Below are positions 1,855 to 19,888 of a DNA stretch of 64,000 bases, one piece after another; position 1 is the first letter of the stretch; each line of letters begins with the position of its first letter. This stretch comes from Acidimicrobiales bacterium. Its GTDB lineage: Bacteria > Actinomycetota > Acidimicrobiia > Acidimicrobiales > Bog-793. A model generated the notes under the pieces. It was not told the origin of the DNA, ran no database searches, and was given only the letters and a program-made list of their open reading frames with translations. The stretch covers positions 4,897-68,896 of the forward strand of contig DATGKK010000145.1 in NCBI GenBank assembly GCA_035294725.1. The letters run 5' to 3'. A program made the translations under genes and the position numbers.

Positions 1855-1862
1855 GGGTGCCG

Positions 1863-2427: not shown

Positions 2428-2667
2428 ATGCCTGAGGTGACGCCAGCTTCGACGCTGGACTGCACGGGCCTCCAATGCCCCTTGCCCGTCATCAAGACCG
2501 CCCAGGCGATCAAGGAGATCGGGATCGGCGAGGTTCTCGAGCTGATCGCCACCGATCCCGGGGTCGAGCCCGACATGAAGGCCTGGAGCTCGCGCACCGG
2601 GAACGAGCTCCTCGGCATCCGTCAGGAGGGCGAGGTCTTCCACGTCCTCCTCCGCCGGAGCGTCTAG
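2428..2667 (+). CDS. tusA: TusA/SirA-family sulfur carrier
   Basis: 79 aa from the internal ATG. It carries the LDCTGLQCPLPVIK motif (CPxP active-site Cys). The upstream part of the listed ORF is Arg-rich junk. Confidence 0.85.
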   Translation: MPEVTPASTLDCTGLQCPLPVIKTAQAIKEIGIGEVLELIATDPGVEPDMKAWSSRTGNELLGIRQEGEVFHVLLRRSV

Positions 2668-2676
2668 GCGCCGGCC

Positions 2677-3060
2677 GTGTGGAGCGACGACGAGGGCGAC
2701 AAGGTCCTCTACGTGCAGACACATGGCGTGGACGACCCCGGCCGGTGCGCGACGCCCTTTTTCCTCGCGGCCTCGGCGGCGGCGATGGAGTGCGAGGTGG
2801 CGATCTATTTCACGATGTACGGACCGCAGCTGCTGCAACGGAGCGTCGTCGACAAGATCGGCCCCAAGGGCGACCGCGGTCAGCCGCTCGCCTACTTCAT
2901 CAAGCAAGCCCGCGACCTCGGTGTCCGCCTGTACGTCTGCCAGCCCTCGCTCGACCTGAACGACCTCAGCCTCGAGGACCTCATCGACGGCGTCGAGATG
3001 ATCGGCGGCGCCGCCTTCAACGACCTCGCGATCCGAGCCGATGCCGTCGTCTCCTTCTGA
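2677..3060 (+). CDS. DsrE/DsrF-family sulfurtransferase
   Basis: 127 aa with a GTG start 10 nt after the tusA stop. DsrE-like fold signature (KVLYVQTHG..., YVCQPSLD). Confidence 0.8.
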   Translation: MWSDDEGDKVLYVQTHGVDDPGRCATPFFLAASAAAMECEVAIYFTMYGPQLLQRSVVDKIGPKGDRGQPLAYFIKQARDLGVRLYVCQPSLDLNDLSLEDLIDGVEMIGGAAFNDLAIRADAVVSF

Positions 3061-3802
3061 CGTGGCCGTCGCCGCCGTCGCCGAGCGGCCCTCGGTGAGG
3101 GGAGCCGCCGTGAAGGCCGAAGCGGTCGCCGGCTTCGAAGAGGTCAGCTACGAGGAAAAGCGTCGCCTGTTCGAGGAGATCAAGTCCGACCTGCGCTTCC
3201 CCGACTACCTCTACGGCTGCTACGAGTGCGGCATCTGCGTGGCGGTGTGCCCGTCTGCCCGCTTCTACGACTTCAGCCCGCGCCGCATCGCCCAGGCTGC
3301 CGCCCGCGAGGACGTCGAGCTCGTCTACCAGCAGATGCAGGAGGACATCTGGGAGTGCTCCCAGTGCTTCTCCTGCCTCCGCTGCCCCCGGGGCAACAAC
3401 CCGGGGGGGATCATCACGATCATGCGGGAGGTCGCCGTCAACCACGGCCTTGCCTCGGCCAAGGAGGCCCTCGAGGGCTACTCCCGGATCATCTACAAGA
3501 TCATGTCGACCGGGACGCAGGTCTCCCCTGACATGCTGCAGCCGGACGCCTTCCCGGACTGGGGGCCCGAGGTAGCCGACGTCTCGAACCAGCTCGCGCT
3601 CTGGCGCCGCGCGCTCCCGCCCGAGACCCTCCACACGACGTCGACCGGTTGGGACGTGTCCGAACGGACCCTGATCGAGCTGTACCTGATCTGGCTCGAG
3701 ACCGGTGCGCTCGACATGATCCGTGACGTCGACGAAGGCCTGCACATGATCCTCGAGGAGGTCATGGAGGAGCGCCTGGAGGAGGAGGGGATCGAGAGAT
3801 GA
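3041..3802 (+). CDS. hdrC1: Heterodisulfide-reductase-like subunit C (sHdrC1), 2x[4Fe-4S] ferredoxin domain
   Basis: Carries CYECGICVAVCP and CSQCFSCLRCP motifs. The ATG at 3041 overlaps the dsrE end by 20 nt. An alternative GTG lies at 3062. Confidence 0.85.
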   Translation: MPSSPSDVAVAAVAERPSVRGAAVKAEAVAGFEEVSYEEKRRLFEEIKSDLRFPDYLYGCYECGICVAVCPSARFYDFSPRRIAQAAAREDVELVYQQMQEDIWECSQCFSCLRCPRGNNPGGIITIMREVAVNHGLASAKEALEGYSRIIYKIMSTGTQVSPDMLQPDAFPDWGPEVADVSNQLALWRRALPPETLHTTSTGWDVSERTLIELYLIWLETGALDMIRDVDEGLHMILEEVMEERLEEEGIER

Positions 3803-3869
3803 AGACCCGAGCGCCCCGGGCGCGACCCGCCTGCACGACCCCGTCGCGACGACGCCGGAGGGAGGACTG

Positions 3870-5063
3870 ATGCCGATCCCTGTCGAGGTGATGCTGAAGA
3901 AGAAGGAGCGGTTCGAGCGGGACCCCGACACCGTGCCGGCCGACTTCCACGATGAGCTGTTCCGGCTTGAGGCAGAAGGCGAGCTCGTCGTGCAGCGGGT
4001 GCCGGACGGGGTTCCCGTCGTCGAGGTCCCGACAAAGTACGGCCGCCCGAAGCTCGTGCCGAAGGGCCATCTCTGGCACCACAAGTCGTGCGGCCAGTGC
4101 GGCCACATCCCCGGCTACTCCACCTCGATCTTCTGGGTGATGCGCAAGCTTGGCTACGACTACGAGGATCCGAGGGACCAGACGTCGTGCACGGCGTGGA
4201 ACTACTACGCGAGCGCGACGTCGAACGAGGCCGCGCAGGCGGCGGTCGCGCTGCGCAACTTCGCGACGGCCTACGAGAGCGGATACTTCCCCCTCATCCA
4301 CTGCGGCACCTCCTACGGCCACTACAAGGAGGTGAGGGCCGAGCTGCTTCGTCACCCGGAGCTCCGTGCCGAGGTGCGACGGGTCATGGACAAGCTCGGG
4401 AAGCCCGTCGTGCTGCCCGAGGAGATCGTCCACTACTCGGAGTGGTTCTACGCGATGCGGGACGAGATCGCTGCCCACCAGGTCCGGGACTTCTCGGGCA
4501 TCGCCGTAACGGTGCACCCCGCCTGTCACTACTACAAGCTTGTCGAAGGTGACGCCATCTACGACCCGGACGTCTACGGAGGCCAACGGACTGCCGTCGT
4601 GACGGCCCTCGCCGAAGCGCTTGGCGCCGAGGTCCGCTCCTACTCGACGTGGTTCGACTGCTGCGGCTTCGGCTTCCGTCACATCCTCGTCCAGCGCGAC
4701 TTCACCCGGTCGTTTGCAACGATCCGCAAGATCGAGGTGATGAAGGAGGAAGCGGACCCCGACGTCGTGCTGACCCACGACACCGGCTGTGTCACCACCC
4801 TCGACAAGAGCCAGTTCGCCGCTCAGGCCCACGGCCGCAACGTCGGCGTCGCCGTCATGTCGGAGGCGCAGTTCGCGGCGCTCGCCATGGGCGCCCATCC
4901 CTACAAGGTCTGCCAGCTCCACTGGCACTCCGCCGACTACCGCCCGCTGCTCGAGAAGATGGGCATCGACTGGGAGCAGGCGTGGGCGGAGTTCGAGGCC
5001 GACGTCGCGCGTCTCGAGCGGGGGGAGAAGGAGTTTCTCAGCTGGGAGGACGTGGACGCCTGA
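3870..5063 (+). CDS. hdrB1: Heterodisulfide-reductase-like subunit B (sHdrB1), CCG domains
   Basis: Cys-rich CCG-type segments (SCGQCGH, HPACHYYK, FDCCGFGF). A GGAGGGAGG RBS lies upstream. Confidence 0.9.
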   Translation: MPIPVEVMLKKKERFERDPDTVPADFHDELFRLEAEGELVVQRVPDGVPVVEVPTKYGRPKLVPKGHLWHHKSCGQCGHIPGYSTSIFWVMRKLGYDYEDPRDQTSCTAWNYYASATSNEAAQAAVALRNFATAYESGYFPLIHCGTSYGHYKEVRAELLRHPELRAEVRRVMDKLGKPVVLPEEIVHYSEWFYAMRDEIAAHQVRDFSGIAVTVHPACHYYKLVEGDAIYDPDVYGGQRTAVVTALAEALGAEVRSYSTWFDCCGFGFRHILVQRDFTRSFATIRKIEVMKEEADPDVVLTHDTGCVTTLDKSQFAAQAHGRNVGVAVMSEAQFAALAMGAHPYKVCQLHWHSADYRPLLEKMGIDWEQAWAEFEADVARLERGEKEFLSWEDVDA

Positions 5064-5083
5064 GGGCGCCGAGCACAGCTCTC

Positions 5084-5107
5084 GGCGGGGCACGCCGTCG
5101 CCCCGCC
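5084..5107 (+). other. Intra-operon GC stem-loop between hdrB1 and hdrA
   Basis: GGCGGGGC-acgccgtc-GCCCCGCC forms a perfect 8-bp stem, followed by ACTTTC and then the hdrA RBS GGGGAG. Confidence 0.3.
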
Positions 5108-5125
5108 ACTTTCAGGGGAGAAGAG

Positions 5126-6196
5126 ATGACGACTGAGCAGGGCGCAGAGCAGGTGGTGGCCGTCATCGGCGGCGGCCCGGCCGGACTCGCCGCAGCGAGG
5201 ACGGCCGCCGACCTCGGTGCTCGGGTCGCGTTGATCGAGCGGCTCGACTTCCTCGGCGGCATGCCGATCATCGAGAACTACGCCGCCATCACGCCCAATC
5301 TCGAGCCGGCCGAGGTGGCGATGGGACGGATGACCGCCGCCGTGGAAGGCGACCCTCGCATCGAGGTGCTGCTCGGCAGCGAGGTGACGTCCTGCGAAGG
5401 TGAGGCCGGCGGGTTCACGCTCGCTCTCGCCGTCCCCGGCGGGAGCCGGCAGCTCACAGCAGGCGCGGTCGTCGTCGCGACCGGTTTCCAGCACTTCGAC
5501 CCCGGCCGCGAGACCCAGATGTACGGCTACTACGAGTTCCCCGACGTCATCGCCCTCCAGGATCTCGAGGCGATGCTGAAGGACCACCACGTGGTCCGGC
5601 CCTCGAACGGCGAGCCGCCGGCCCGGATCTGCTTCGTCCAGTGCGTGGGCAGCCGGGACCGCCAGATCGGCAACGAGTACTGCTCGAAGGTGTGCTGCGG
5701 GATCGCTTCGAAGGAGGCGATCGAGGTTCGCCAGCAGCTCCCTGGCTGCGAGGTGTTCATCTTCTACATCGACATGCGGATGTACGGCTACTGGGAGAAC
5801 CAGATCTACTGGCCGGCCCAGGAGCAGCACCACGTCCAGTACGTGAAGGGCGTCATCAGCGAGGTCCTGCCGAAGGGAGACCGCCTGCTCGTCCGCGGCG
5901 AGGACACCACGATGGGCCGGCCGATGGAGGTGTTGATGGACCTCGTCGTGCTCTCGGTGGGCATGGAGCCCTCGCCGGGAACCCGCAAGATGGCCGCCGT
6001 CCTCGGCATTCGCCAGAACCGCTACGGCTTCATCGACGCGGCCCATCCCCCGCTCGACACCGTGAGCACGAGCCGCCCCGGGGTGTTCGCGGCGGGAGCG
6101 GCCCTTGGGCCGGCCGACCTCGAGGACAGCGTCTCGACGGGCGCCGCCGCCGCGTCCCGTGCGGTCGCACTGCTGCGGAGCCCGGTCGGGGCGTGA
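5126..6196 (+). CDS. hdrA: Heterodisulfide-reductase-like subunit A (sHdrA), FAD plus [4Fe-4S]
   Basis: VAVIGGGPAGLAAA dinucleotide fold and a CVGSRDRQIGNEYCSKVCC cluster motif. Internal ATG with a GGGGAG RBS. Confidence 0.9.
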   Translation: MTTEQGAEQVVAVIGGGPAGLAAARTAADLGARVALIERLDFLGGMPIIENYAAITPNLEPAEVAMGRMTAAVEGDPRIEVLLGSEVTSCEGEAGGFTLALAVPGGSRQLTAGAVVVATGFQHFDPGRETQMYGYYEFPDVIALQDLEAMLKDHHVVRPSNGEPPARICFVQCVGSRDRQIGNEYCSKVCCGIASKEAIEVRQQLPGCEVFIFYIDMRMYGYWENQIYWPAQEQHHVQYVKGVISEVLPKGDRLLVRGEDTTMGRPMEVLMDLVVLSVGMEPSPGTRKMAAVLGIRQNRYGFIDAAHPPLDTVSTSRPGVFAAGAALGPADLEDSVSTGAAAASRAVALLRSPVGA

Positions 6197-6942
6197 GCCG
6201 AGCAGTGGCTGTCGTGCCCGGACCCACGGTCGACGTCCTTGCGGCCGGCGAGTTCATGTCCGAGGTCCTCGCCCGGGTCGAGCGGACTGTCCTCGACCAG
6301 ATCGCCGGCGAGCTCGAGGCCAAGCACCAACTGTTCTCGCGGCTGCTCGCCGACGGCCGGGCGCGTTCGCTCGACGCGGCCGGAGCGCGCGAGGTGCTGC
6401 GGGCGATCTTCGCCACTCGCCGCCGGGCGGACGGGATCGTCGCCGAGCTCGGCCCCGAGCGGCTCGCCCACGCGGTGGCGGAGCTGCTGGACGGCGAGGG
6501 TCCCCTGGCCGCGCGCTTCGCGGAGTTCGACGAGCGCCTCAGCCCCGTCGCCGATGCCGCCTTCGACCTGCCCGGGGAGTTGCTCCACTTCACCTATCCC
6601 GATCGCTACTGGCTCTGGACGCGCTGGATGTGGGACCCGCGGATCGAGACCGGCTCACTCCGGCTCGTGACGAGCGAGGAGCTCGACCTCACCGCCGAGG
6701 GCCGGGGCGAGGGCTACCTGCGCGTCGGACAGGCGGTCGCGCTCGTCCACGAGATGGGGCGTGCCGGCGGCTTCGTCACTGGCGAGGAGCTGTTCGGCAC
6801 CGACGTCTTCCTTGCCTGTGTCTACGCCATCTACATGTACACCGTCCTTCGCATGCGGATGACCCAGGAGTTCAACCGCATCGTGCCCGAGCTGCCGGAC
6901 CTCGTTCGCCGGCTGCTCGGAGTCCGTCACCTTCCCCGCTGA
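6193..6942 (+). CDS. Conserved hypothetical protein at the 'hyp' position of hdrC1B1A-hyp-hdrC2B2
   Basis: The GTG at 6193 overlaps the hdrA TGA (GTGA). About 249 aa with GC3-rich coding. No motif recognised. An alternative ATG lies at 6256. Confidence 0.7.
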   Translation: MSRAVAVVPGPTVDVLAAGEFMSEVLARVERTVLDQIAGELEAKHQLFSRLLADGRARSLDAAGAREVLRAIFATRRRADGIVAELGPERLAHAVAELLDGEGPLAARFAEFDERLSPVADAAFDLPGELLHFTYPDRYWLWTRWMWDPRIETGSLRLVTSEELDLTAEGRGEGYLRVGQAVALVHEMGRAGGFVTGEELFGTDVFLACVYAIYMYTVLRMRMTQEFNRIVPELPDLVRRLLGVRHLPR

Positions 6943-6950
6943 GGAGCGCC

Positions 6951-8255
6951 ATGCCGATCGGAGGTCGCAAGCAAGCACCCACCGTCGTGGAGGAGGAGAT
7001 GGCCGTTGTCACCTCGGCCATCTCCGGGCGGACCTCTGAGCTCCCGGCGATGTGGAACCGCATGTTGGAGCCGCGGGTCCTGCGTGACTACGCGGCCGGC
7101 GGCTTCGCCCGCCTCTCGGAGCTCGAGGGAGGGGAGTCGCTCGAGTGGTGCTACGGCTGCGGCAAGTGCGTGCCGGTCTGCCCGGTGGACCTCGTGGGCG
7201 AGTACGGCCCTCGCAAGCTCCACCGCAAGGTGCAGTCCGGCGTCGACCTGTTGGCCGACGACGACCTGTGGCTCTGCACGACCTGCATGAACTGCCTGAG
7301 GGTCTGCCCCAAGCAGGTCGACATGGTGCAGGTGATGCCGGCGGCGAGGGGAGCGGCCGTCGCCTCTGCTGCGGTGCCCGCCGAGTTGCAGGAGGTGTTC
7401 GAGAAGACCTTCCGCTACGGCAACTGCCTCGGGGAGAACCCCCGACGGCGCCACGCCTGGACCCGTGGCGCCGGCGTGCCCGTGCGCGTCCTCGCCGACG
7501 AGCCGGGGCCTGTCGACGTCCTTTTCTACGTCGAGGACTACTGGAGCTACCACCCTCGCGGGCAGCAGGCGGCCCAGGCATTCGCCCGGGTGCTCACGGC
7601 CCTCGGGGTCGACTTCGCCATCCTCGGCGCCGAGGAGAAGACGGTCGGCGATTCGCAGCGGCTTGCCGGCGAGGCGGGCCTTTTCGAAGCGCTCATGGAG
7701 GAGGTCGCCTCCACCCTCAGCCGGTACGAGTTCCGCCGGATCGTCACGCCGGACCCGCACGGCTTCAACGCCCTCGTGAAGGAGTACCCCAAGCGTGGCC
7801 ACCACTACGAGGTGCTGCACTACACGCAGCTGCTGGCGCCCCTCGTGCCGAAGATCTCGTGGGCACGGAGCCTCGATCGGGTCGTCACCTTTCACGATCC
7901 CTGCTATCTCGGGCGCCACAACGGCGAGTACGACGCGCCCCGCGCCCTCATCGAGGCGATCCCAGGCATCCGCCTCGTCGAGATGGGCCGCTGCAGGGAG
8001 AACGGCTACTGCTGCGGCGGCGGCGGCGGCGGGATGTGGCTCGACGGCTTCACCTCGAACCACACGACCGAGCGCCTGTCCGAGCGGAGGGTCCGCGAGG
8101 CGGCCGAGACCGGCGCCGAGGTCCTCGCCGTCTGCTGCCCCTACGAGGTCTCGCGCTTCGAGGACGCCGCCAAGTCGACCGGCAACGAGCAGCTCCAGGT
8201 CCGAGACATCGTCGAGCTCCTCGACGAGGCGATGGGAGCCCCCGGTGCCAGCTGA
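6951..8255 (+). CDS. Fused HdrC2-HdrB2 (HdrD-like) Fe-S/CCG protein
   Basis: N-terminal CYGCGKCVPVCP and CTTCMNCLRVCP, followed by HDPCYLGRH and YCCGGGGG CCG motifs in one 434-aa ORF. A GAGGAG RBS lies at 6941. Confidence 0.85.
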   Translation: MPIGGRKQAPTVVEEEMAVVTSAISGRTSELPAMWNRMLEPRVLRDYAAGGFARLSELEGGESLEWCYGCGKCVPVCPVDLVGEYGPRKLHRKVQSGVDLLADDDLWLCTTCMNCLRVCPKQVDMVQVMPAARGAAVASAAVPAELQEVFEKTFRYGNCLGENPRRRHAWTRGAGVPVRVLADEPGPVDVLFYVEDYWSYHPRGQQAAQAFARVLTALGVDFAILGAEEKTVGDSQRLAGEAGLFEALMEEVASTLSRYEFRRIVTPDPHGFNALVKEYPKRGHHYEVLHYTQLLAPLVPKISWARSLDRVVTFHDPCYLGRHNGEYDAPRALIEAIPGIRLVEMGRCRENGYCCGGGGGGMWLDGFTSNHTTERLSERRVREAAETGAEVLAVCCPYEVSRFEDAAKSTGNEQLQVRDIVELLDEAMGAPGAS

Positions 8256-13100: not shown

Positions 13101-13111
13101 AGGAGCCTTCG

Positions 13112-13873: not shown

Positions 13874-13910
13874 GTGGCCGGGGCCGGAACGAGACGAGGA
13901 GGACAGCGCA

Positions 13911-14873
13911 GTGAGCAACGACGTGCTGGTGCTGGCGGAGCACCGGGATGGTGCCGTGAGCGACATCTCCTTCGAGCTGCTCGCCAAGGCGCGTGAGCTC
14001 GCCGGAGGCTCCGGAGGCCGGGCGGTCGTGCTGCTGCTCGGCGCGACAGAGCTTGCCCGAGAGCTCGGCGGCGCCGACTTGGTGCGCTCCGTCGAGCATC
14101 CTCTGCTCGACCGCTACAACCCGGAGGCGTACGAGCGGGTGGTGCGAGCGGCGCTCGAGGAGATCGAGCCGCGCCTGTTCCTCACCTCGACGACGACGGT
14201 CGGCCTCGACCTCGCCGGAGCTCTCTCGGTGGCGAGCGACACGCCGCTCGTCTCCTATGTCTGTCGTCTCGAGGCTGCAGGCGACAACGTGGTGGCGACG
14301 GCCCAGATCTACGGCGGGAAGCTCCTCGCCGAGGTCGAGTTGCCGCGGCCCCGGGCGATCTGCGCCGTGCTGGCCGGTTCGTTCCCCGTTCCGGCAATGG
14401 ACGGCGAGCAGGCACCGCCGGTCGAGCCGCTCGAGGTCGGCGGCCTCCTCGACGACCTGCGAACGGCCGTCACCTCTGTGATCGTGCCCGAGGCCGGCGA
14501 CGTCGACATCACCTCTGCCGACCTCCTCGTCTCGGTCGGGCGGGGTATCGGGAACCAGGGCAACCTCGAGGTCGTCGAGGAGCTCGCGGAGGCGCTCGGT
14601 GCCCCGCTCGCTGCGTCACGGCCGCTCGTCGACCAGGGGTGGCTGCCAAAGTCGCGCCAGGTCGGAAAGTCCGGCCTCAAGGTCAAGCCGCGGATCTACC
14701 TCATGCTCGGCATCTCCGGTGCCCCTGAGCACCTCGAGGGGATACGGGAAGCCGAGCTCGTGATCGCCTGCAACACCGACGCCAAGGCGCCCATCTTCGA
14801 AGTCGCCGACTACGGCACGACCGTCGACCTGTTCGACCTCGTGCCGGAGCTCCTGGACCGGGTCAAGGCCTGA
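13911..14873 (+). CDS. etfA: Electron transfer flavoprotein alpha subunit
   Basis: VLVLAEHRDG... N-terminus and the C-terminal FAD motif SRQVGKSGLKVKPRIYLMLGISGAPEHLEG. Confidence 0.9.
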   Translation: MSNDVLVLAEHRDGAVSDISFELLAKARELAGGSGGRAVVLLLGATELARELGGADLVRSVEHPLLDRYNPEAYERVVRAALEEIEPRLFLTSTTTVGLDLAGALSVASDTPLVSYVCRLEAAGDNVVATAQIYGGKLLAEVELPRPRAICAVLAGSFPVPAMDGEQAPPVEPLEVGGLLDDLRTAVTSVIVPEAGDVDITSADLLVSVGRGIGNQGNLEVVEELAEALGAPLAASRPLVDQGWLPKSRQVGKSGLKVKPRIYLMLGISGAPEHLEGIREAELVIACNTDAKAPIFEVADYGTTVDLFDLVPELLDRVKA

Positions 14874-14905
14874 GCCCGGCGAAGGACAGCCGCGAAGGAG
14901 AGGCC

Positions 14906-16915
14906 GTGATCGTGCGCATTGCCATCGGAGGGGCGGTCACGGCCGTCGCGCTCGCCCTCGCGGCTCGCCGCCTCTACCGCCTCGGTCGGCTGGTCCGCTC
15001 GGGGGCTCCCGCGCCCGGCCGGACGAGCAAGGCGGCGCGCCGCCTCGGCGCCGAGATCGTCGAGGTGCTCGGCCAGCGAAAGATCCTGAGACGGCGCCAG
15101 TCGGGGATCCCGCACGCCCTCGTCTTCTGGGGCTTCCTCGTCCTTTTGTTCACCGTGGTCGAGGCGTTCGGCGACGTCTTTGCAAACCGCCGGTTCGCGA
15201 TCCCGCTGATCGGGCATGCGGCGGCGCTCGGCTTCGTCGAGGACCTCTTCATCCTCGTCGTCCTCGGCGGCGTGGTCGCCTTCACCGTGATCCGCACAAT
15301 CGACTCCCCGGCCCGGCGCGAGCGCCGTTCCCGCTTCTACGGGTCGCACACGAAAGCGGCGTGGGTCGTGCTCGCCATGATCGCCGTCGTGATGGTGAGC
15401 CTGCTCGGCTACCGGGCCGCCCAGGTGAACACCGGCGACTTCCCCTACGGGGACTGGGCCTTCGCCTCGCACGCCCTGGCGAGCCTGCTCCACCCGCTTG
15501 GCCGCGGCGTCAACTCGGTGATCGAGACGACCCTGCTCCTCGTCAACGTCGCCGCCATCATGGGCTTCCTCGTCTTTGTCACCTACTCCAAGCACCTCCA
15601 CATCTTCTTGGCACCGCTCAACATCGCCTTCTCGCGTCGCCCGCGCGCGCTCGGGGCGCTCGACGTGCCGGGCTCCACGGTCGGCGCCGAGCACATCGAG
15701 CAGCTGAGCTGGAAGCAGCTGCTCGATCTCGTCACCTGCACCGAGTGCGGCCGGTGCCAGGCGGCCTGCCCGGCGTGGACGACGAACCGGCCGCTCTCGC
15801 CCAAGCTGCTCGTGATGGACCTGCGTGACGAGCTCTTCGCCGCGTCGGGCCGTCTTCTCTCTCCCGGTAGGGACGCGCCCGCGACGAAGCTCGTCCCTGA
15901 CGTCGTCCGCGCCGAGACGGTCTGGTCGTGCACGACCTGCGGCTCCTGCGTGGAGCAGTGCCCGGTCGACATCGAGCACATCGACACGATCGTCCACCTC
16001 CGCCGGCGGCTCGTCGACGAGGGCCAGATCGAACCCGGGGTCCAAGAGGTGCTGCAGCGGATCGCCCAGCAGGGCAACTCCTTTGGGAAGTCGGATCGGA
16101 TGCGTGCGCGCTGGACCCGGGAGCTCGGCTTTCCCGTGAAGGACGCCAGGAAGGAGGCGGTCCGGTACCTGTGGTTCGTCGGGGACTTCGCCTCGTTCGA
16201 CGAGCGCCTGCAGGAGCTCTCGCGCGGCCTCGCCCACCTTCTGCACGGGGCAGGGGTCGACTTCGGCCTTCTGTACGAGGGCGAGCGCAACGCCGGCAAC
16301 GACGTTCGCAGGATCGGCGAGGAAGGTCTGTTCGAGATGCTCGTCGAGCGGAACCTCGCCTCGCTCGGAGAGGCCAGCTTCGAGGAGATCTTCACCACCG
16401 ATCCGCACACCTTCAACACCCTTCGGAACGAGTACCCCGCGTACGGCCTCGACAAGCCGGTGCTCCACTACAGCCAGCTGCTGCAGCGCCTCCTTGCGGC
16501 AGGCGACCTCGCCGTCGAGCCGCTCGGGCTTGCGGTCACCTACCACGACCCCTGCTACCTCGGCCGGCACAATCGGGTCACCGAGCCCCCTCGGGCAGTG
16601 CTGAGGGCGCTCGGCTGCTCGCTCGTCGAGATGCCCCGTCACGGCACGAACACGTTCTGCTGCGGCGCCGGAGGTGGGCGGATCTGGATGTCGGACGACC
16701 CCTCTCTCGGCGAGCGCCCGAGCGAGAACCGGATCCGCGAGGCGGTGGCGCTCGGGGTCGACTACTTCGTCGTCGCCTGCCCGAAGGACTACGTCATGTA
16801 CTCCGACGCCGTGAAGACGACCGGCAACGAGGACCGCCTAAAGGTCGTCGACCTTGTCCAGCTCACCGAGCGGGCGCTTCGCGCTCCGGCGCTCCGCGAG
16901 CCCGAGACGGTCTGA
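14906..16915 (+). CDS. Membrane-anchored Fe-S/CCG oxidoreductase (EtfD / Etf:quinone oxidoreductase-like, HdrD/DsrK-type catalytic domain)
   Basis: About 240-aa N-terminal polytopic segment with conserved His (PHALVFWGF, SKHLHIF). This is followed by CTECGRCQAACP, CTTCGSCVEQCP, HDPCYLGRH and FCCGAGGG. Confidence 0.85.
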   Translation: MIVRIAIGGAVTAVALALAARRLYRLGRLVRSGAPAPGRTSKAARRLGAEIVEVLGQRKILRRRQSGIPHALVFWGFLVLLFTVVEAFGDVFANRRFAIPLIGHAAALGFVEDLFILVVLGGVVAFTVIRTIDSPARRERRSRFYGSHTKAAWVVLAMIAVVMVSLLGYRAAQVNTGDFPYGDWAFASHALASLLHPLGRGVNSVIETTLLLVNVAAIMGFLVFVTYSKHLHIFLAPLNIAFSRRPRALGALDVPGSTVGAEHIEQLSWKQLLDLVTCTECGRCQAACPAWTTNRPLSPKLLVMDLRDELFAASGRLLSPGRDAPATKLVPDVVRAETVWSCTTCGSCVEQCPVDIEHIDTIVHLRRRLVDEGQIEPGVQEVLQRIAQQGNSFGKSDRMRARWTRELGFPVKDARKEAVRYLWFVGDFASFDERLQELSRGLAHLLHGAGVDFGLLYEGERNAGNDVRRIGEEGLFEMLVERNLASLGEASFEEIFTTDPHTFNTLRNEYPAYGLDKPVLHYSQLLQRLLAAGDLAVEPLGLAVTYHDPCYLGRHNRVTEPPRAVLRALGCSLVEMPRHGTNTFCCGAGGGRIWMSDDPSLGERPSENRIREAVALGVDYFVVACPKDYVMYSDAVKTTGNEDRLKVVDLVQLTERALRAPALREPETV

Positions 16916-16924
16916 GGCCGGGCC

Positions 16925-17245
16925 GTGCGCTGCCCCTTCTGCGAAGCCGACGCAGCGCCTCGGGCCCTCCACTCTCATCTGGAGGCGGCGCACCCCGAGG
17001 GGGTGGTCGTCACCGAGTCCCCCGGCGGCCGCCTCGCCTACAAGGTGAGCTGCCCGCGTTGCGGCGCGCACTACGAGCACGCGGTGAAGGGACGAAGCGG
17101 CACGGGTGCCTTCGTCGCGGAGCATGCCCGTGAGATCCGGCTCGTCGGCTTCGACATGCTCGTCAACCATCTCATCGCCGAGCACCCCGGTGATGAGGGC
17201 GGCGCCGAGGACCCGGCTCCGGCTCACAGCGAGGAGGAGAGTTGA
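16925..17245 (+). CDS. Small Cys/His protein (two CxxC knuckles, repeated HLxAxHP motif), unknown function
   Basis: 106 aa and GC3-rich. Motifs are CPFC-x11-HLEAAHP and CPRC...NHLIAEHP. Its stop overlaps the TTG start of the next lbpA (TTGA). Confidence 0.65.
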   Translation: MRCPFCEADAAPRALHSHLEAAHPEGVVVTESPGGRLAYKVSCPRCGAHYEHAVKGRSGTGAFVAEHAREIRLVGFDMLVNHLIAEHPGDEGGAEDPAPAHSEEES

Positions 17246-17679
17246 GCACCGTCAACCAGTGCGACATCCCCGACGACCTCTACTACCTCGTCGAGCGGCA
17301 CGTCTGGGCGCGCCTCGAGGGGGACACGGTCGTCGTCGGTCTGTCCGACGTGGCGCAGAGCTTGGCGAAGACGATCGTCTCGGTCTCGGTGAAAGACCCA
17401 GGACGCCCGGTGCGCAAGGGGAGGAGCATCGCCACGGTCGAGAGCGGGAAGTGGGTGGGCCCGGTCCCCTCGCCCGTGAGCGGCGAGATCGTCGAGGTGA
17501 ACGAGGTTCTCCGCTCGGCACCGGCCACCCTCAACGCGGACCCGTACGGGGCGGGGTGGATCGCGCGCATTCGCTGCGAGGACTGGCGGTCCGACTCGGC
17601 GGACCTCCTCACCGGGCCGGCCGCTGTCGAGGCGTACCGTGCCTTCCTCGACGCCGAAGGCATCCGCTGCGGCGAGTAG
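17242..17679 (+). CDS. lbpA: GcvH-like lipoate-binding protein (LbpA paralogue)
   Basis: 145 aa with VESGKWVGPVPSPVSGEIVEVN around the lipoyl-Lys. Cys7 and a C-terminal IRCGE. Confidence 0.85.
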   Translation: MSTVNQCDIPDDLYYLVERHVWARLEGDTVVVGLSDVAQSLAKTIVSVSVKDPGRPVRKGRSIATVESGKWVGPVPSPVSGEIVEVNEVLRSAPATLNADPYGAGWIARIRCEDWRSDSADLLTGPAAVEAYRAFLDAEGIRCGE

Positions 17680-17691
17680 GCAGGGTGAACG

Positions 17692-18141
17692 GTGGCGATC
17701 TGGCAGGGCTGCGCCGTTCCCGAGGAGCTGCTCTACGATCTCGAGCACGACGTGTGGGTCCGCTTGGATGGCGACGAGGCGGTGCTCGGCATGACCGACG
17801 TCGCCCAGACGCGCTGCGGGCGCCTCGTGCAGGTGAGCTGGAAGCAGCCCGGCGCCCGCCTGCGCAGGGGGCGTCCGGCCTGCGTGATCGAGAGCGCAAA
17901 GTGGGTAGGGCCATTCGTCTCGCCCCTGAGCGGGGAGCTCGTGGCGACGAACGAGCCGCGCTTTGCCGACGACGTGGCGATCGCGAACCGCGATCCCTAC
18001 GGCGAGGGGTGGCTAGTCCGGCTGAGGCCGGTCGACCTCGAGGGCGAGCGGCCCTTCCTCGTGGACGGCGCCGTTGCGTTCGAGCACTACCGGCGGCTCA
18101 TCGACGAGAACGACGTGAGGTGCTTCAGGTGCACAGACTGA
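17692..18141 (+). CDS. lbpA: GcvH-like lipoate-binding protein (LbpA paralogue)
   Basis: 149 aa with IESAKWVGPFVSPLSGELVATN around the lipoyl-Lys. Cys7 and a C-terminal VRCFRCTD. Confidence 0.85.
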   Translation: MAIWQGCAVPEELLYDLEHDVWVRLDGDEAVLGMTDVAQTRCGRLVQVSWKQPGARLRRGRPACVIESAKWVGPFVSPLSGELVATNEPRFADDVAIANRDPYGEGWLVRLRPVDLEGERPFLVDGAVAFEHYRRLIDENDVRCFRCTD

Positions 18142-18271
18142 GCGGTGCTTCCCGGGTCGAAGGAGGGCTCTCGTGCCCGCGGAAGAGTCGCGGGCTGCGA
18201 GCTGGCGCCCGAGCGGACCCGCCTTCTTGGCTCGGCACGGAGCCGGGTACTCCGAGGAAGGGAGAAGGACA

Positions 18272-18772
18272 ATGACAGAACCGTCCGTCGACGCTCGCCA
18301 GAAGAGGATGTGCGTCATCTGCTGGAGCGCCGATCTCGACCGGGTGTGGCCGACCCTGATCCTCTCGACGACGGCGGCCGCCTCCGGCCTCGAGGTCGAC
18401 GTGTTCTTCACCTTCTGGGGCCTGCGCGTACTGCAGCGCAATGACAAGCGTCTCACGGGCGTGAACCTGAAACAGAAGATGGAGTCGGTCTTCGACCGCG
18501 GCGGGACCGACCACCTCCACCTTGGCAAGCTGCACATGGGCGGCATGGGCACGATGATGATCAAGCAGCTGGCCAAGGAGTACAAGGTGGCGACACCGAC
18601 GGACCTGCTCGGCATGGCGAGCGACCTCGGGGTGCGGCTGCATCCGTGCCAGATGACGATGGAGCTCTACGGCCTGACCAAGGACGACTTCATCGACGGC
18701 CTCCAGCCGCCGATCGGAGCCGCGAGCTTCATCGACATGGCGGCGGACGCCGACATCACCTTGTTCATCTGA
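18272..18772 (+). CDS. DsrE/DsrF-like (COG2210-type) sulfur relay protein
   Basis: 166 aa from the ATG preceded by GGAAGGGAGAAGG. Carries MCVICWSADLD... and LHPCQMTMEL motifs typical of DsrE-related proteins. Confidence 0.75.
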   Translation: MTEPSVDARQKRMCVICWSADLDRVWPTLILSTTAAASGLEVDVFFTFWGLRVLQRNDKRLTGVNLKQKMESVFDRGGTDHLHLGKLHMGGMGTMMIKQLAKEYKVATPTDLLGMASDLGVRLHPCQMTMELYGLTKDDFIDGLQPPIGAASFIDMAADADITLFI

Positions 18773-18809
18773 CGGCGCCGGTTCCCGCACACCTCTCTCT
18801 GTCGACACC

Positions 18810-19475
18810 GTGACGCCGCCGGTGCGCTCGATCCTGCTCGTCGGCGGCGGCGCTCAGCTCGCCCGCAGGGTCGAGACGCTGGCGCGCGAGCTCGGGCTTG
18901 CCGTCACTGACGAGGTGGATCACCCGCCACCTCCGTCGCTGCTCTCCGCCGTGGTCGTCGACCTTGCGCTCCCGGGCGTCCTCGAACAGCTCGCCTCGTG
19001 GCGCGAGCGAGCGCCTGAGGCACTCCTCGTCGCCCACCTGCGGGCGCCCGACCGGGAGCTCTGGCAGGCCGCAGAGCGCGTCGGCTGCGACCTCGTCACC
19101 AACGAGGGCGCCCTCGTCGGCCGCCTCCGCCGCCTCCTTGCCGCGGGCCCGGCTGGCCGCCGCCTCTTCCCGCTCCTCGATGCGGCCGACGTGGCGGGAC
19201 GGCTCGGGCTCGTCTGCCGCGTCGAGGCGACCCCCGTCGGGCCGGTCGCGCTCTACCAGGTGGGCGGCCGGCTGCGCTGTGTGAGGGACGTCTGCCCTCA
19301 TCAGGGGGCGACTCTGTCTGCTGGCGAGCTCGACGGCGGCGTCGTGACCTGCCCCGCCCACGGAAGCCGCTTCGACGTGGCGACCGGTGAGCGGCTTCGC
19401 GGGCCGGCCGACAGCGAGCTGCAGCTCTTCGACGTCGCCGAGGTCGAAGGCAGGATCCAGCTCGTGGTCCCGTGA
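18810..19475 (+). CDS. Rieske [2Fe-2S] protein with an N-terminal receiver-like (pseudo-receiver) domain
   Basis: The C-terminus has CPHQGATL...CPAHGSRFD. The N-terminal ~110 aa show a CheY-like beta-alpha pattern (ILLVGGG, VVVDLALPG, LLVAHL, DLVTNEG) but lack the acidic pair and the Lys. Confidence 0.8.
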   Translation: MTPPVRSILLVGGGAQLARRVETLARELGLAVTDEVDHPPPPSLLSAVVVDLALPGVLEQLASWRERAPEALLVAHLRAPDRELWQAAERVGCDLVTNEGALVGRLRRLLAAGPAGRRLFPLLDAADVAGRLGLVCRVEATPVGPVALYQVGGRLRCVRDVCPHQGATLSAGELDGGVVTCPAHGSRFDVATGERLRGPADSELQLFDVAEVEGRIQLVVP

Positions 19476-19888
19476 CCGGCGCCAACAGCTGCGACGCCGG
19501 AGGAGGGAATGTGCCCGCGGCGACCCGGGTTGGTGCTGAGGTGCCCTCAAGCGACCTCCAACCCGCTCCCGGTGTCACCGTCTACTGGCGCCCGGGCTGC
19601 CCCTTCTGCTCGCGGCTCCGGCGTGGGCTGAGGCGCGCAGGCCTCCCGGTCCACGAGGTCAACATCTGGGAGGACAGCTCCGCAGCCGCCGCCGTGCGAG
19701 CACTGGCCGGTGGGAACGAGACGGTGCCGACCGTCGTCATCGGCGAGACCTCGCTCGTCAACCCGTCGGCCGCCACGGTCCTTGCCGCAGCCCGACGAGC
19801 CGGTATCGCCGCCGGGGAGCCGGCGCCGGCGGTGTCGAGACGATCGGTCGGCGCCCTGCTCGCCGCCCTGCGTGGTCGTTGGTCGTAG
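19472..19888 (+). CDS. Glutaredoxin/mycoredoxin-like thiol-disulfide oxidoreductase
   Basis: VYWRPGCPFCSRL active site and TVPTVVIG motif. GTGA overlap with the Rieske gene. The N-terminal extension makes the start uncertain. Confidence 0.7.
   Translation: MTGANSCDAGGGNVPAATRVGAEVPSSDLQPAPGVTVYWRPGCPFCSRLRRGLRRAGLPVHEVNIWEDSSAAAAVRALAGGNETVPTVVIGETSLVNPSAATVLAAARRAGIAAGEPAPAVSRRSVGALLAALRGRWS

What the first reader, a model, noticed from the sequence alone, without database searches (positions are those of the whole stretch)
2428..19888. 21-gene sHdr-LbpA sulfur-oxidation supercluster of the Etf-containing type in an actinobacterium-like genome
Seen: 21 same-strand genes in this order:
- tusA (CPLP)
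- dsrE
- hdrC1
- hdrB1
- hdrA
- hyp
- fused hdrC2B2
- lplA-like
- gcvH-like
- radical SAM
- lplA-like
- radical SAM
- etfB
- etfA
- membrane Fe-S/CCG protein
- small Cys/His protein
- gcvH-like x2
- dsrE-like
- Rieske
- Grx-like

Seven junctions are 4-nt ATGA/GTGA/TTGA overlaps (6193, 9348, 9812, 10849, 11970, 17242, 19472), which implies tight translational coupling.

Established: hdrC1B1A-hyp-hdrC2B2 with lbpA and dedicated lipoate-maturation genes is the sHdr-LbpA pathway that oxidises protein-bound sulfane sulfur to sulfite in the cytoplasm (genetics in Hyphomicrobium denitrificans). As far as I recall, a 'type II' variant with a fused HdrB3 and etfAB-emo has been defined by comparative genomics but is not biochemically characterised.

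Inference: this locus is a very complete type-II-like version. It carries extra genes (a second ligase, a third LbpA, a Cys/His protein, a pseudo-receiver-Rieske fusion, a Grx-like protein) whose roles are undescribed to my knowledge.
Basis: partly seen in the sequence, partly recalled or inferred. Interest (0 to 1): 0.8.

Follow-up and report, generated by a model that had tools for sequence, protein, structure and literature searches.

The report
Known actinobacterial type II sHdr sulfur-oxidation operon
This is a real, correctly read 21-gene operon for the "type II" heterodisulfide-reductase-like (sHdr) sulfur-oxidation pathway; the same layout recurs in dozens of Actinomycetota genomes, so it is a new example of a described system, with a few conserved accessory genes whose roles are still unknown.

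Summary
Twenty-one same-strand genes lie at 2428-19888 in the stated order, and all seven 4-nt start/stop overlaps are present.

The locus meets the published definition of a type II sHdr-LbpA cluster (shdrC1B1AH-B3 plus etfAB-emo):
- HdrA is the short sHdrA type; its best solved relative is H. denitrificans sHdrA (6TJR).
- The membrane Fe-S protein is an EMO/EtfD homologue (M. smegmatis EMO, 9OJN).
- The two radical-SAM genes are LipS1/LipS2-like.

The locus is not unusual. HdrB3 relatives occur in at least 209 species genomes. Of 65 related loci, 51 carry the same hdrB3-lpl-lbpA-lipS1-lpl-lipS2-etfBA order. Of 12 loci with enough downstream sequence, 11 carry the same CysHis-lbpA-lbpA-dsrE2-Rieske tail. 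So most "extra" genes belong to the standard actinobacterial layout. Only the mycoredoxin-like last gene is restricted to the window's own lineage.

Papers from 2018, 2019 and 2024 already describe such clusters in Actinobacteria. What stays open is the biochemistry of type II and the roles of four accessory proteins. Interest 0.3; new member of a known kind.

The parts
1863..2216 (-). ArsR/SmtB-family transcriptional regulator, divergent from tusA. It has one cysteine (C22), not the two-cysteine sHdrR/SoxR type.
   Evidence: Pfam HTH_5 62 bits. NCBIfam HTH_metalloreg 89.7 bits (cut-off 55); BigR model 51 bits, below its cut-off of 155. Homologues lie next to the cluster in about 30 related loci, upstream of tusA or after the Rieske gene, often in two copies.
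2344..2363 (.). Operator-like inverted repeat ATATGCG-N6-CGCATGT between the regulator gene and tusA.
   Evidence: One match in the window with 1 mismatch; 0.01 expected by chance. The motif lies within 250 nt upstream of tusA in 14 of 63 related loci, against 4 matches in 1.16 Mb of the rest of those loci. Aligned upstream regions are shown. Binding by the ArsR protein is inferred.
2428..2667 (+). tusA, sulfur carrier (79 aa; CPxP cysteine C17 and C12 conserved).
   Evidence: Pfam TusA 76.7 bits. C12 and C17 are conserved in 70 sequences (the window's plus orthologues).
2677..3060 (+). dsrE3A-type sulfur transferase (127 aa; conserved C88).
   Evidence: Pfam DsrE and DrsE_2. Best solved relative is 3MC3, 82.7 bits over the full length; Tanabe 2024 names 3MC3 as a DsrE3A. 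C88 is conserved.
3041..3802 (+). shdrC1, ferredoxin-like subunit with two [4Fe-4S] motifs. Start uncertain (3041 or 3062).
   Evidence: Fer4_8. HdrC models are the best NCBIfam hits, below cut-off. Eight conserved Cys: 60/63/66/70 and 106/109/112/115.
3870..5063 (+). shdrB1, CCG-domain subunit proposed as the catalytic subunit.
   Evidence: Pfam CCG 44.8 bits. HdrB models are the best NCBIfam hits, below cut-off. Conserved Cys include C219, C264, C265, C307 and C348.
5126..6196 (+). shdrA, short (356 aa) FAD/[4Fe-4S] flavoprotein.
   Evidence: PDB 6TJR (H. denitrificans sHdrA) 284 bits, residues 11-352 against 4-342. Methanogen HdrA about 199 bits over residues 109-347 only. Conserved C169, C173, C186, C190, C191.
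6193..6942 (+). shdrH, the conserved 'hyp' between shdrA and shdrB3 (249 aa, no family model).
   Evidence: No Pfam or NCBIfam hit. Present at this position in 79 related loci. No conserved Cys, His or Lys. 4-nt overlap with shdrA.
6951..8255 (+). shdrB3, a fusion of an HdrC2-like di-cluster domain with a single CCG domain.
   Evidence: Fer4_8/Fer4_9 at residues 64-123 plus CCG at 312-397. Conserved Cys 67/70/73/77, 109/112/115/119, and 318/348/354/355/395/396. 209 relatives were found in species genomes.
8245..9351 (+). Divergent LplA-family paralogue ('second ligase'). Start uncertain (8245 or 8308).
   Evidence: LplA-B_cat 71.8 bits. TIGR00545 only 43.5 bits. 29% identical to g11 over 173 residues. 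Aligns with T. acidophilum LplA 2ARS, including the catalytic-lysine position. RRxxGGGAVY and K153-x-C155-G-H157 are conserved across 65 sequences. Present in 51 of 65 loci.
9348..9815 (+). lbpA copy inside the maturation block (155 aa; lipoyl-lysine K79; no terminal cysteines).
   Evidence: GCV_H 71.2 bits. K79 is conserved across 64 sequences.
9812..10852 (+). lipS1-like radical-SAM lipoyl synthase.
   Evidence: NCBIfam LipS1 NF053742 223.7 bits over the full-length profile (cut-off 230). CxxxCxxC at C59/C63/C66 is conserved.
10849..11973 (+). Lipoate:protein ligase, the more canonical of the two (sLpl(AB)-like).
   Evidence: LplA-B_cat 121 bits. TIGR00545 132 bits over residues 33-330. R140-K141 are conserved.
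11970..13100 (+). lipS2-like radical-SAM lipoyl synthase.
   Evidence: NCBIfam LipS2 NF053743 180.5 bits over the full-length profile (cut-off 270). C71/C75/C78 are conserved.
13112..13873 (+). etfB, electron-transfer flavoprotein beta subunit.
   Evidence: Pfam ETF 78.4 bits. PDB 1O94_C 134.5 bits.
13911..14873 (+). etfA, electron-transfer flavoprotein alpha subunit.
   Evidence: ETF plus ETF_alpha. PDB 6FAH_A 189 bits and 1O94_D 160 bits.
14906..16915 (+). emo (EtfD-like ETF:menaquinone oxidoreductase), the only membrane protein of the cluster.
   Evidence: PDB 9OJN (named as M. smegmatis EMO in the preprint read) 484.9 bits over residues 3-663. About five hydrophobic segments in residues 1-230. 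Conserved H70 and H232, eight cubane Cys, and C550/571/585/586/625.
16925..17245 (+). Conserved 106-aa protein with two CxxC...HxxxxH motifs. Function unknown.
   Evidence: Nine Cys/His (C3, C6, H16, H18, H23, C43, C46, H82, H87) are at least 85% conserved across 44 sequences and invariant in a separate 13-sequence alignment. Only a sub-threshold zf-Di19 hit. AF2 model pLDDT 84. No Foldseek PDB match better than E 0.2. Databases call it 'hypothetical protein'.
17242..17679 (+). lbpA (145 aa; lipoyl-lysine K70; conserved C7 and C143).
   Evidence: GCV_H 115 bits. Conserved residues.
17692..18141 (+). lbpA (149 aa; lipoyl-lysine K70; conserved C7, C144, C147).
   Evidence: GCV_H 89.7 bits. Conserved residues.
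18272..18772 (+). dsrE2-type soluble sulfur transferase (166 aa from ATG 18272; the longest ORF starts at 18173).
   Evidence: DrsE_2 139.7 bits. PDB 3PNX and 2QS7 about 69 bits over the full length; Tanabe 2024 names 2QS7 as a DsrE2B. C50 and C159 are conserved (numbering from 18173).
18810..19475 (+). Fusion of a receiver-like N-terminal domain with a Rieske [2Fe-2S] ferredoxin domain.
   Evidence: Rieske 54 bits at residues 145-206. C162-P-H164 and C181-P-x-H184 are invariant. AF2 model pLDDT 94. Foldseek: dioxygenase Rieske ferredoxins at TM 0.8-0.89 of the target, plus NarL receiver 1A04 at E 4e-6. 218 homologues at E <= 0.001; coverage is 77-100% among the 120 listed.
19472..19888 (+). 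Mycoredoxin/glutaredoxin-like protein (CPFC motif). A lineage-restricted appendage to the operon.
   Evidence: Glutaredoxin 57.3 bits. TIGR02200 mycoredoxin 79.6 bits (cut-off 89.5). 4-nt overlap with g20. A Grx gene follows the Rieske gene only in the closest metagenome contig, L165. None was detected (tblastn) downstream of the Rieske gene in any related genome locus, including the closest MAGs (L081, L141).

Best explanation
The locus is a type II sHdr-LbpA sulfur-oxidation operon in its standard actinobacterial form, together with its own cofactor-maturation genes and a divergent ArsR-type regulator.

Proposed working (all steps inferred from homology and from work on type I systems; nothing here was measured):
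1. Sulfane sulfur, from thiosulfate or from persulfides, is picked up as a protein persulfide or thiosulfonate. It is passed between DsrE3A (g2), DsrE2 (g19) and TusA (g1).
2. The sulfur is handed to the cytoplasmic sHdr complex: sHdrA flavoprotein, sHdrC1, the proposed catalytic sHdrB1, sHdrH, and sHdrB3 in place of C2+B2. This complex works with lipoylated LbpA proteins (g9, g17, g18) and oxidises the sulfur to sulfite.
3. The electrons leave through the dedicated EtfAB (g13, g14) to the membrane haem-b/Fe-S protein EMO (g15), which reduces menaquinone and so feeds the respiratory chain.
4. The LbpA proteins are made functional by the block g8-g12. An LplA-type ligase attaches octanoate or lipoate to the conserved lysine, and LipS1 and LipS2 insert the two sulfurs.
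5. The ArsR-type protein probably represses the operon by binding the ATATGCG-N6-CGCATAT repeat just upstream of tusA.

Four proteins are conserved or linked accessories with no assignable step: the double CxxC/HxxxxH protein (g16), the receiver-like-Rieske ferredoxin (g20), the divergent ligase paralogue (g8) and the mycoredoxin-like protein (g21).
For: Shown by tools:
- Gene content and order.
- sHdrA identity (6TJR).
- sHdrB3 is a Fer4 plus single-CCG fusion with the expected conserved cysteines.
- EMO identity (9OJN, 485 bits), about five hydrophobic segments and conserved H70/H232. These His align with the 'GIAHF' and 'SKHLHI' motifs of MsEMO; I infer that they correspond to the proximal haem ligands His87/His251 described for SaEMO.
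- LipS1 and LipS2 are the best, full-length NCBIfam matches of the two radical-SAM genes.
- The lipoyl-lysine is conserved in all three LbpA.
- DsrE3A and DsrE2B are the best solved relatives of g2 and g19.
- Synteny is conserved in 51 of 65 and 11 of 12 informative loci.
- An ArsR gene is linked in about 30 loci, and the operator-like repeat is enriched upstream of tusA.

From the literature:
- Definition and distribution of type II, and the proposal that EtfAB-EMO passes electrons to menaquinone (PMC11094781).
- 'Group III' clusters in Actinobacteria and Firmicutes (PMC6067878).
- sLpl(AB)-LipS1/S2 assembly of LbpA shown in bacteria (PMC10332631).
- 45-fold induction of the equivalent T. roseum cluster (PMC6776052).
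Against: - No type II system has been characterised biochemically or genetically (no later paper was found). Substrate, product and electron route are therefore extrapolated from type I.
- The rest of the window holds no sox, sqr, sulfite-oxidising or sulfur-import genes.
- Many carriers of the same cluster belong to genera (Streptomyces, Amycolatopsis, Mycolicibacterium) that, from my own knowledge, are not recognised sulfur lithotrophs.
- LipS1 and LipS2 score below NCBI's curated cut-offs.
- LipT, the proposed electron donor for LipS1/S2, is absent from the cluster.
- The regulator lacks the second cysteine that sulfane-sulfur sensing by sHdrR/SoxR requires.
- The PDB comparison does not say whether the Etf is of the bifurcating kind.
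Confidence: 0.75

Rival explanations
1. Same machinery, different physiology. In heterotrophic Actinomycetota the cluster is not a lithotrophic energy pathway. It would instead oxidise endogenous or exogenous thiols and persulfides (reactive sulfur species), either as a supplementary electron source during starvation or as detoxification. Electrons would still go to menaquinone.
For: - The equivalent 19-gene cluster of Thermomicrobium roseum is the most strongly induced locus (about 45-fold) in nutrient-limited stationary phase, and its authors proposed thiol oxidation (PMC6776052).
- Carriers include Streptomyces, Amycolatopsis and Mycolicibacterium.
- No further sulfur-oxidation genes lie in the window.
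- A thiol-disulfide mycoredoxin-like gene is translationally coupled to the operon end.
Against: - All core proteins are orthologous in type to the system that genetics showed to oxidise thiosulfate-derived sulfane sulfur in Hyphomicrobium.
- Known type II carriers such as Sulfobacillus are sulfur oxidisers.
- The two roles are not mutually exclusive.
- The mycoredoxin-like gene is absent from nearly all related loci.
Confidence: 0.2
2. The Hdr-like genes belong to a reductive methanogen-type, Flx-Hdr or Qmo-type complex. The association with LbpA, TusA and DsrE would then be incidental.
For: NCBIfam's closest named models for g3, g4 and g5 are methanogen HdrC, HdrB and HdrA, because that library returned no sHdr-specific model.
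Against: - All those hits are far below their curated cut-offs, for example HdrA2 at 250 bits against 1100.
- HdrA is 356 aa. It matches sHdrA 6TJR end to end, better than it matches any methanogen HdrA, which aligns only with residues 109-347.
- The gene order with tusA, dsrE and lbpA is conserved in dozens of genomes.
Confidence: 0.02
3. EtfAB (with or without EMO) is not the electron exit of sHdr. It would instead supply electrons to the radical-SAM lipoyl synthases LipS1/LipS2, replacing the missing LipT.
For: - etfB follows lipS2 directly, with an 11-nt gap, in 51 of 65 loci.
- lipT is absent from the cluster, and only about 53% of LipS1/S2 bacteria have lipT (PMC10332631).
Against: - In the 14 of 65 loci that lack the whole maturation block, etfBA-emo still directly follows shdrB3. 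Etf therefore travels with sHdr, not with lipS.
- EMO is a menaquinone-linked enzyme.
Confidence: 0.05

Closest known systems
Type II sHdr-LbpA system (shdrC1B1AHB3-etfAB-emo), as defined by Tanabe et al. 2024 (PMC11094781). The same arrangement is 'Group III' of Cao et al. 2018 (PMC6067878).
   Same: Same core genes in the same order. It has the fused sHdrB3 with one CCG set, etfAB and emo in the cluster, tusA and dsrE3A at the front, two to three lbpA, and an Actinomycetota host.
   Different: Nothing essential differs. The term look-ups I ran in these papers returned nothing on the double CxxC/HxxxxH protein, the receiver-Rieske fusion, the second LplA paralogue or the mycoredoxin-like gene ('Rieske' 0 occurrences in both Cao 2018 and Tanabe 2024; 'glutaredoxin' 0 in Cao 2018). 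Figures and supplementary tables were not available to me.
Type I sHdr-LbpA system of Hyphomicrobium denitrificans, Thioalkalivibrio and Aquifex (shdrC1B1AHC2B2). This is the only version with genetic and biochemical proof.
   Same: It shares sHdrA (6TJR-like), C1, B1, H, LbpA, TusA and DsrE-type transferases, the sLpl(AB)-LipS1/S2 maturation genes, and an ArsR-type regulator nearby.
   Different: In the window C2 and B2 are fused into B3 with only one non-cubane cluster site. EtfAB-EMO is present. LipT is absent. The regulator has one cysteine instead of the Cys50/Cys116 pair.
Thermomicrobium roseum 19-gene cluster trd_0160-0142 (Islam et al. 2019, PMC6776052).
   Same: hdrABC-like genes, etfAB, tusA, dsrE1, dsrE2, three lbpA and hypotheticals in one cluster. 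Transcription is strongly regulated.
   Different: The host is a Chloroflexota. I did not compare the sequences, so whether its 'hypotheticals' include homologues of g16 or g20 is untested.
Mycobacterial and syntrophic EtfAB-EMO (EtfD) electron path from acyl-CoA dehydrogenases to (methyl)menaquinone (PDB 9OJN; PMC8805022; bioRxiv 10.64898/2026.08.18.745454).
   Same: g15 is a clear EMO homologue: about five hydrophobic N-terminal segments, His residues aligning with conserved His motifs of MsEMO, two cubane clusters and a CCG domain. It sits next to its own EtfAB.
   Different: Here the presumed electron source is the sHdr complex, not an acyl-CoA dehydrogenase. g15 is 669 aa against 1042 aa for the M. 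smegmatis protein.

Membership tests
Type II sHdr system (Tanabe et al. 2024 definition) | shdrC1, shdrB1, shdrA, shdrH and shdrB3 adjacent in this order in one syntenic cluster | tested here: met
   Genes at 3041-8255 in this order. The same order is seen in 60+ related loci.
Type II sHdr system (Tanabe et al. 2024 definition) | etfAB in the same cluster (emo usually too) | tested here: met
   etfB 13112-13873, etfA 13911-14873 and emo 14906-16915.
Type II sHdr system (Tanabe et al. 2024 definition) | sHdrB3 is a fusion of C2 and B2 that can bind only one non-cubane cluster | tested here: met
   Fer4 di-cluster domain at 64-123 plus a single CCG domain at 312-397. Conserved Cys pattern: 8 + 6. 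Cluster content itself is not testable here.
Type II sHdr system (Tanabe et al. 2024 definition) | sHdrA is the short (about 350 aa) flavoprotein type, not the methanogen HdrA of about 650 aa | tested here: met
   356 aa. 6TJR 284 bits end to end; methanogen HdrA about 199 bits, partial.
Type II sHdr system (Tanabe et al. 2024 definition) | Recognition by the HMSS2 sulfur HMM set used in the defining paper | not testable with these tools
   HMSS2 is not among the libraries available.
Type II sHdr system (Tanabe et al. 2024 definition) | Function: oxidation of protein-bound sulfane sulfur to sulfite | not testable with these tools
   Needs genetics or biochemistry. Not yet shown for any type II system.
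LbpA lipoate-binding proteins | GcvH fold with the conserved lipoyl-lysine, encoded with shdr genes rather than with gcvT/gcvP | tested here: met
   GCV_H in g9, g17 and g18. K79, K70 and K70 are conserved. No glycine-cleavage genes were found among the window genes scanned. Phylogenetic separation from true GcvH was not tested.
sLpl(AB)-LipS1/LipS2 lipoate assembly pathway | LipS1-family radical-SAM lipoyl synthase | tested here: inconclusive
   NF053742 223.7 bits over the full-length profile, 6 bits under the cut-off of 230. It is the best hit by far.
sLpl(AB)-LipS1/LipS2 lipoate assembly pathway | LipS2-family radical-SAM lipoyl synthase | tested here: inconclusive
   NF053743 180.5 bits over the full-length profile; cut-off 270. 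It is the best hit by far.
sLpl(AB)-LipS1/LipS2 lipoate assembly pathway | Lipoate:protein ligase with the catalytic lysine | tested here: met
   g11: LplA-B_cat 121 bits, with R140-K141 conserved. g8 is a divergent second copy that keeps K153. Placement in the sLpl(AB) clade was not tested.
sLpl(AB)-LipS1/LipS2 lipoate assembly pathway | LipT FAD oxidoreductase next to lipS1/S2 (frequent but not obligatory; about 53% of bacteria with LipS1/S2) | tested here: not met
   None of the 21 genes is a LipT-like flavoprotein.
EMO / EtfD (ETF:menaquinone oxidoreductase) | NarI-like five-helix haem-b membrane domain fused to HdrC-like and HdrB-like Fe-S domains | tested here: met
   9OJN 485 bits over residues 3-663. 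About five hydrophobic segments. H70, H232 and the Cys sets are conserved. Architecture as described.
sHdrR/SoxR-type sulfane-sulfur-responsive ArsR repressors | Two conserved cysteines (Cys50 and Cys116 in H. denitrificans sHdrR) that form the sulfur bridge | tested here: not met
   The 117-aa protein has a single Cys (C22, in 'SSMCKAL') and none near the C-terminus. The two relatives examined (L083, L017) keep a Cys at this position, and L083 likewise has no second Cys. PMC12423496 notes that many shdr-linked ArsR proteins lack the pair.
Methanogen-type HdrABC, Flx-Hdr or Qmo | Scores above the curated equivalog cut-offs; long multi-domain HdrA | tested here: not met
   HdrA2 250 bits against 1100; HdrB 134 against 450; HdrC 79 against 350; QmoC 39-51 against 300. 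HdrA is 356 aa.

The most novel reading that the evidence does not exclude
The accessory genes would be real, so far undescribed components of the actinobacterial type II pathway. They are the double CxxC/HxxxxH protein, the receiver-like-Rieske ferredoxin that travels with DsrE2, and the divergent LplA paralogue paired with its own LbpA. They might, for example, provide a second electron or sulfur entry route, or a dedicated lipoyl relay. In addition, the single-cysteine ArsR protein with the ATATGCG-N6-CGCATAT operator would represent a sensing mode different from the two-cysteine sHdrR/SoxR mechanism.
Probability: 0.35. Interest if true: 0.5.

Novelty: new member of a known kind. Interest (0 to 1): 0.3.

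Why it matters
Type II sHdr is the version of the cytoplasmic sulfur-oxidation pathway found in Actinomycetota, Chloroflexota and Bacillota, and it has not been studied biochemically. This locus adds no new kind of system.

The comparison made here is still useful in three ways:
- It shows that a fixed 20-gene layout plus an ArsR regulator is shared by many soil, peat and acid-site Actinomycetota, including cultivable Amycolatopsis, Streptomyces, Mycolicibacterium, Ferrimicrobium and Ferrithrix.
- It gives a concrete list of four conserved or linked proteins and one operator motif that any mechanistic study of type II would have to explain.
- It names tractable organisms in which to test them.

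Tried and rejected
- Plain ORF listing was useless at 70% G+C. I replaced it with GC3 frame analysis.
- A pattern-based search for g20 relatives mostly returned unrelated Rieske proteins. Only L081-L083 were full-length. The word-indexed protein search worked better.
- I looked for the Grx gene after the Rieske gene in nine loci and in the closest MAGs and did not find it. It turned up only in one metagenome contig. I therefore rejected it as a conserved member of the cluster.
- Foldseek of the g16 model against the PDB gave no match better than E 0.2, and only a sub-threshold zf-Di19 hit exists. No fold family is assigned.
- PDB comparison of EtfA and EtfB could not decide between bifurcating and non-bifurcating types. 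CarE is best for EtfA, and the M. methylotrophus ETF is best for EtfB.
- The sigma-70 scan found no promoter. The TTGAC box seen in the upstream alignment is only suggestive.
- The exact-sequence look-up of the window's own Rieske protein found nothing, so the source sample is unknown.
- The upstream ABC transporter (73 to about 1866, minus strand) was considered as part of the system and rejected. It has a homologue in only one related locus, far from the cluster.
- One paper search failed on a syntax error. Kuempel et al. 2024, the paper that proposed the Etf-EMO route, could not be located in the library, so it is cited only through PMC11094781.

Full report

Yes. The window is about 70% G+C, so ORF lists are crowded with spurious frames. 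A third-position GC plot shows an unbroken succession of + strand coding frames from about 2300 to 19900.

All seven 4-nt overlaps are present: 6193, 9348, 9812, 10849, 11970, 17242 and 19472. The remaining junctions are gaps of 8-67 nt (up to 130 nt before g19), plus two apparent overlaps that depend on uncertain start codons. Terminator-like sites are not more frequent than in shuffled sequence.

Small corrections:
- g19 most likely starts at 18272.
- The starts of g3 and g8 are uncertain.

**2. What each part is**

*The sHdr core*
- g5 is a 356-aa flavoprotein. It aligns end to end with the crystal structure of Hyphomicrobium denitrificans sHdrA (6TJR, 284 bits). Methanogen HdrA chains align only with residues 109-347, at about 199 bits.
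- NCBIfam's methanogen HdrA/B/C and QmoC models all score far below their cut-offs.
- g3 has the eight cysteines of two cubane clusters. g4 has a CCG domain. g7 is a fusion of a di-cluster domain with a single CCG domain. All the relevant cysteines are conserved in 70-84 aligned sequences.
- g6 has no family model, but it sits between shdrA and shdrB3 in 79 related loci.

*The electron exit*
- g13 and g14 are EtfB and EtfA.
- g15 matches the solved Mycobacterium smegmatis EMO (9OJN) at 485 bits over residues 3-663.
- g15 has about five hydrophobic segments in its first 230 residues.
- It keeps two conserved His (H70, H232) that align with conserved His motifs of MsEMO. I infer that these correspond to the proximal haem ligands described for SaEMO.

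*Cofactor maturation*
- g10 and g12 are best matched, over the full profile length, by NCBI's LipS1 and LipS2 models. Both score below the cut-offs: 223.7 against 230, and 180.5 against 270.
- g11 is a fairly canonical lipoate:protein ligase.
- g8 is a divergent paralogue, 29% identical to g11. It still keeps the RRxxGGGAVY motif and the catalytic-lysine position.

*Carriers*
- g9, g17 and g18 are GcvH-fold proteins with the lipoyl-lysine conserved.
- g1 is TusA.
- g2 is closest to the DsrE3A structure 3MC3, and g19 to the DsrE2B structures 2QS7 and 3PNX (names).

**3. The 'extra' genes**

*g16.* This 106-aa protein has nine Cys/His residues at least 85% conserved across 44 sequences and invariant in a second, 13-sequence alignment. 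They form two CxxC...HxxxxH motifs. Its AlphaFold model is confident (pLDDT 84), but it has no significant structural neighbour in the PDB. Databases call it 'hypothetical'.

*g20.* This is modelled with pLDDT 94. Its C-terminal half superposes on Rieske ferredoxins of dioxygenases, and its N-terminal half on the NarL receiver domain. It keeps an aspartate at the phospho-acceptor position (D51), but by my reading of the alignment it lacks the conserved receiver lysine. It has 218 homologues at E <= 0.001 (coverage 77-100% among the 120 listed), annotated only as Rieske proteins.

*g21.* This is mycoredoxin-like, with a CPFC motif.

**4. Comparison with other genomes**

A scan of one genome per species with sHdrB3 found 209 relatives. 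The best 80 (72-91% identity) are almost all Actinomycetota:
- many Acidimicrobiia MAGs;
- Amycolatopsis acididurans and A. alkalitolerans;
- Streptomyces caeni;
- Mycolicibacterium moriokaense;
- Ferrithrix thermotolerans and Ferrimicrobium acidiphilum.

Mapping the 21 window proteins on these loci shows the same order throughout:
- Of 65 loci holding both shdrB3 and etfB, 51 carry the g8-g12 maturation block between them. In the other 14, shdrB3 is followed directly by etfB.
- Of 12 loci with enough sequence after emo, 11 carry g16-g17-g18-g19-g20, two of them with g19-g20 inverted. Further loci fetched with g16 show the same tail.

So g8, g9, g16, g18, g19 and g20 belong to the standard actinobacterial layout.

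g21 is different. tblastn found no g21 homologue in any related genome locus, including the closest MAGs, which have 1.7-3.2 kb of sequence after the Rieske gene. It is present, again with a 4-nt overlap, only in the closest metagenome contig (86% identical Rieske protein).

**5.

A divergent ArsR/SmtB regulator gene lies at 1863-2216 on the minus strand. Homologues are adjacent to the cluster in about 30 loci, often in two copies.

Between it and tusA lies an inverted repeat, ATATGCG-N6-CGCATGT, at 2344-2363:
- It has one match in the window, where 0.01 is expected.
- The motif occurs within 250 nt upstream of tusA in 14 of 63 related loci. There are only 4 matches in the remaining 1.16 Mb of those loci.

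The protein has only one cysteine. It is therefore not a two-cysteine sHdrR/SoxR-type sensor. A 2025 paper notes that this is common among shdr-linked ArsR proteins (PMC12423496).

The rest of the window carries no further sulfur genes. It holds an ABC transporter, an amidohydrolase, recC, a recB-like gene and assorted metabolic genes.

**6. How it most likely works**

By homology with the genetically proven type I system, and following the proposal cited in PMC11094781:
1. Sulfane sulfur is carried by DsrE3A, DsrE2 and TusA to the sHdr complex and lipoylated LbpA.
2. There it is oxidised to sulfite.
3. Electrons pass through EtfAB to EMO and menaquinone.
4. LbpA is matured by the ligase(s) and LipS1/LipS2 (PMC10332631).
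5. The ArsR protein probably represses the operon at the repeat.

Shown here: gene identities, conserved ligands, synteny and motif enrichment. Inferred: every functional step.

The synteny gives one useful discrimination. Because etfBA-emo stays attached to shdrB3 in the 14 loci that lack the maturation block, Etf belongs to the sHdr module. It is unlikely to be a LipT substitute for the lipoyl synthases.

**7. Comparison with what is known, and novelty**

- Cao et al. 2018 described 'Group III' clusters in Actinobacteria and Firmicutes, with Hdr-like genes, two or three LbpA and EtfBA.
- Islam et al. 2019 described a 19-gene equivalent in T. roseum, with three lbpA, tusA, dsrE1, dsrE2 and hypotheticals, induced 45-fold in stationary phase.
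- Tanabe et al. 2024 defined type II and counted 130 assemblies, mainly Chloroflexota, Actinobacteriota and Bacillota, mostly with TusA and DsrE3A.

The locus meets that definition feature by feature. It is a new member of a known kind.

I found no paper that characterises type II biochemically. My term look-ups in the papers I consulted returned nothing on g8, g16, g20 or g21. Figures and supplements were not seen, and Kuempel et al. 2024 was not available.

**8. Verdict**

The residual interest lies in the conserved accessory proteins, the single-cysteine regulator with its operator, and the physiological role in heterotrophic Actinomycetota. Interest 0.3.

Noticed in passing
window 2396-2435: The strong Shine-Dalgarno GGGAGGGAGAG is followed by an out-of-frame ATG at 2409. 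That ATG opens an 8-codon mini-ORF ending at TGA 2433-2435, which overlaps the tusA ATG at 2428. 'GCGATGCC' occurs twice, 19 nt apart. Removing 2414-2432 would restore the SD-ATG-CCT-GAG-GTG arrangement seen in relatives. This is either a 19-nt duplication, which would leave tusA dependent on reinitiation, or an assembly error.
   Followed up: partly
window 17242-17679 and 17692-18141 (g17, g18), compared with 9348-9815 (g9): The two tail LbpA proteins carry conserved cysteines at both termini (C7 and C143 in g17; C7, C144 and C147 in g18). The LbpA inside the maturation block has none and evolves faster, at 40-63% identity against about 60-88%. This suggests two functional classes of LbpA.
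   Followed up: partly
window 54000-58000: G+C drops to 0.64-0.65 and GC skew rises over genes for an oligopeptide-type ABC transporter: a permease at 54862-55947 and a solute-binding protein at 55948-57918, both on the minus strand.
   Followed up: no
window 21921-28957: recC (21921-25478) and a UvrD/RecB-like helicase gene lie just downstream. The helicase's stop-to-stop frame opens at 25376, so the two frames overlap by about 100 nt.
   Followed up: no
L010 (MAG YF2.bin99), upstream of tusA: This locus has additional HdrA-like (30-36% identity) and HdrB3-like (57%) genes directly upstream of the type II cluster, so a second Hdr-like set sits next to the first.
   Followed up: no
L151 and L161; L152; L039, L040 and L160: Layout variants. 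In L151 and L161, emo is missing between etfA and g16 and lies inverted downstream. In L152, tusA-dsrE lies inverted after the Rieske gene. In L039, L040 and L160, dsrE2-Rieske is inverted as a pair. DsrE2 and the Rieske fusion move together.
   Followed up: partly
window 73-2208, minus strand: The long minus-strand ORF overlaps the ArsR gene in another frame. The ABC_membrane domain starts only at residue 147 of the 711-aa stop-to-stop translation. The ABC exporter gene therefore probably starts near 1866 and forms an arsR-ABC operon. The transporter is not conserved next to the cluster in relatives.
   Followed up: partly
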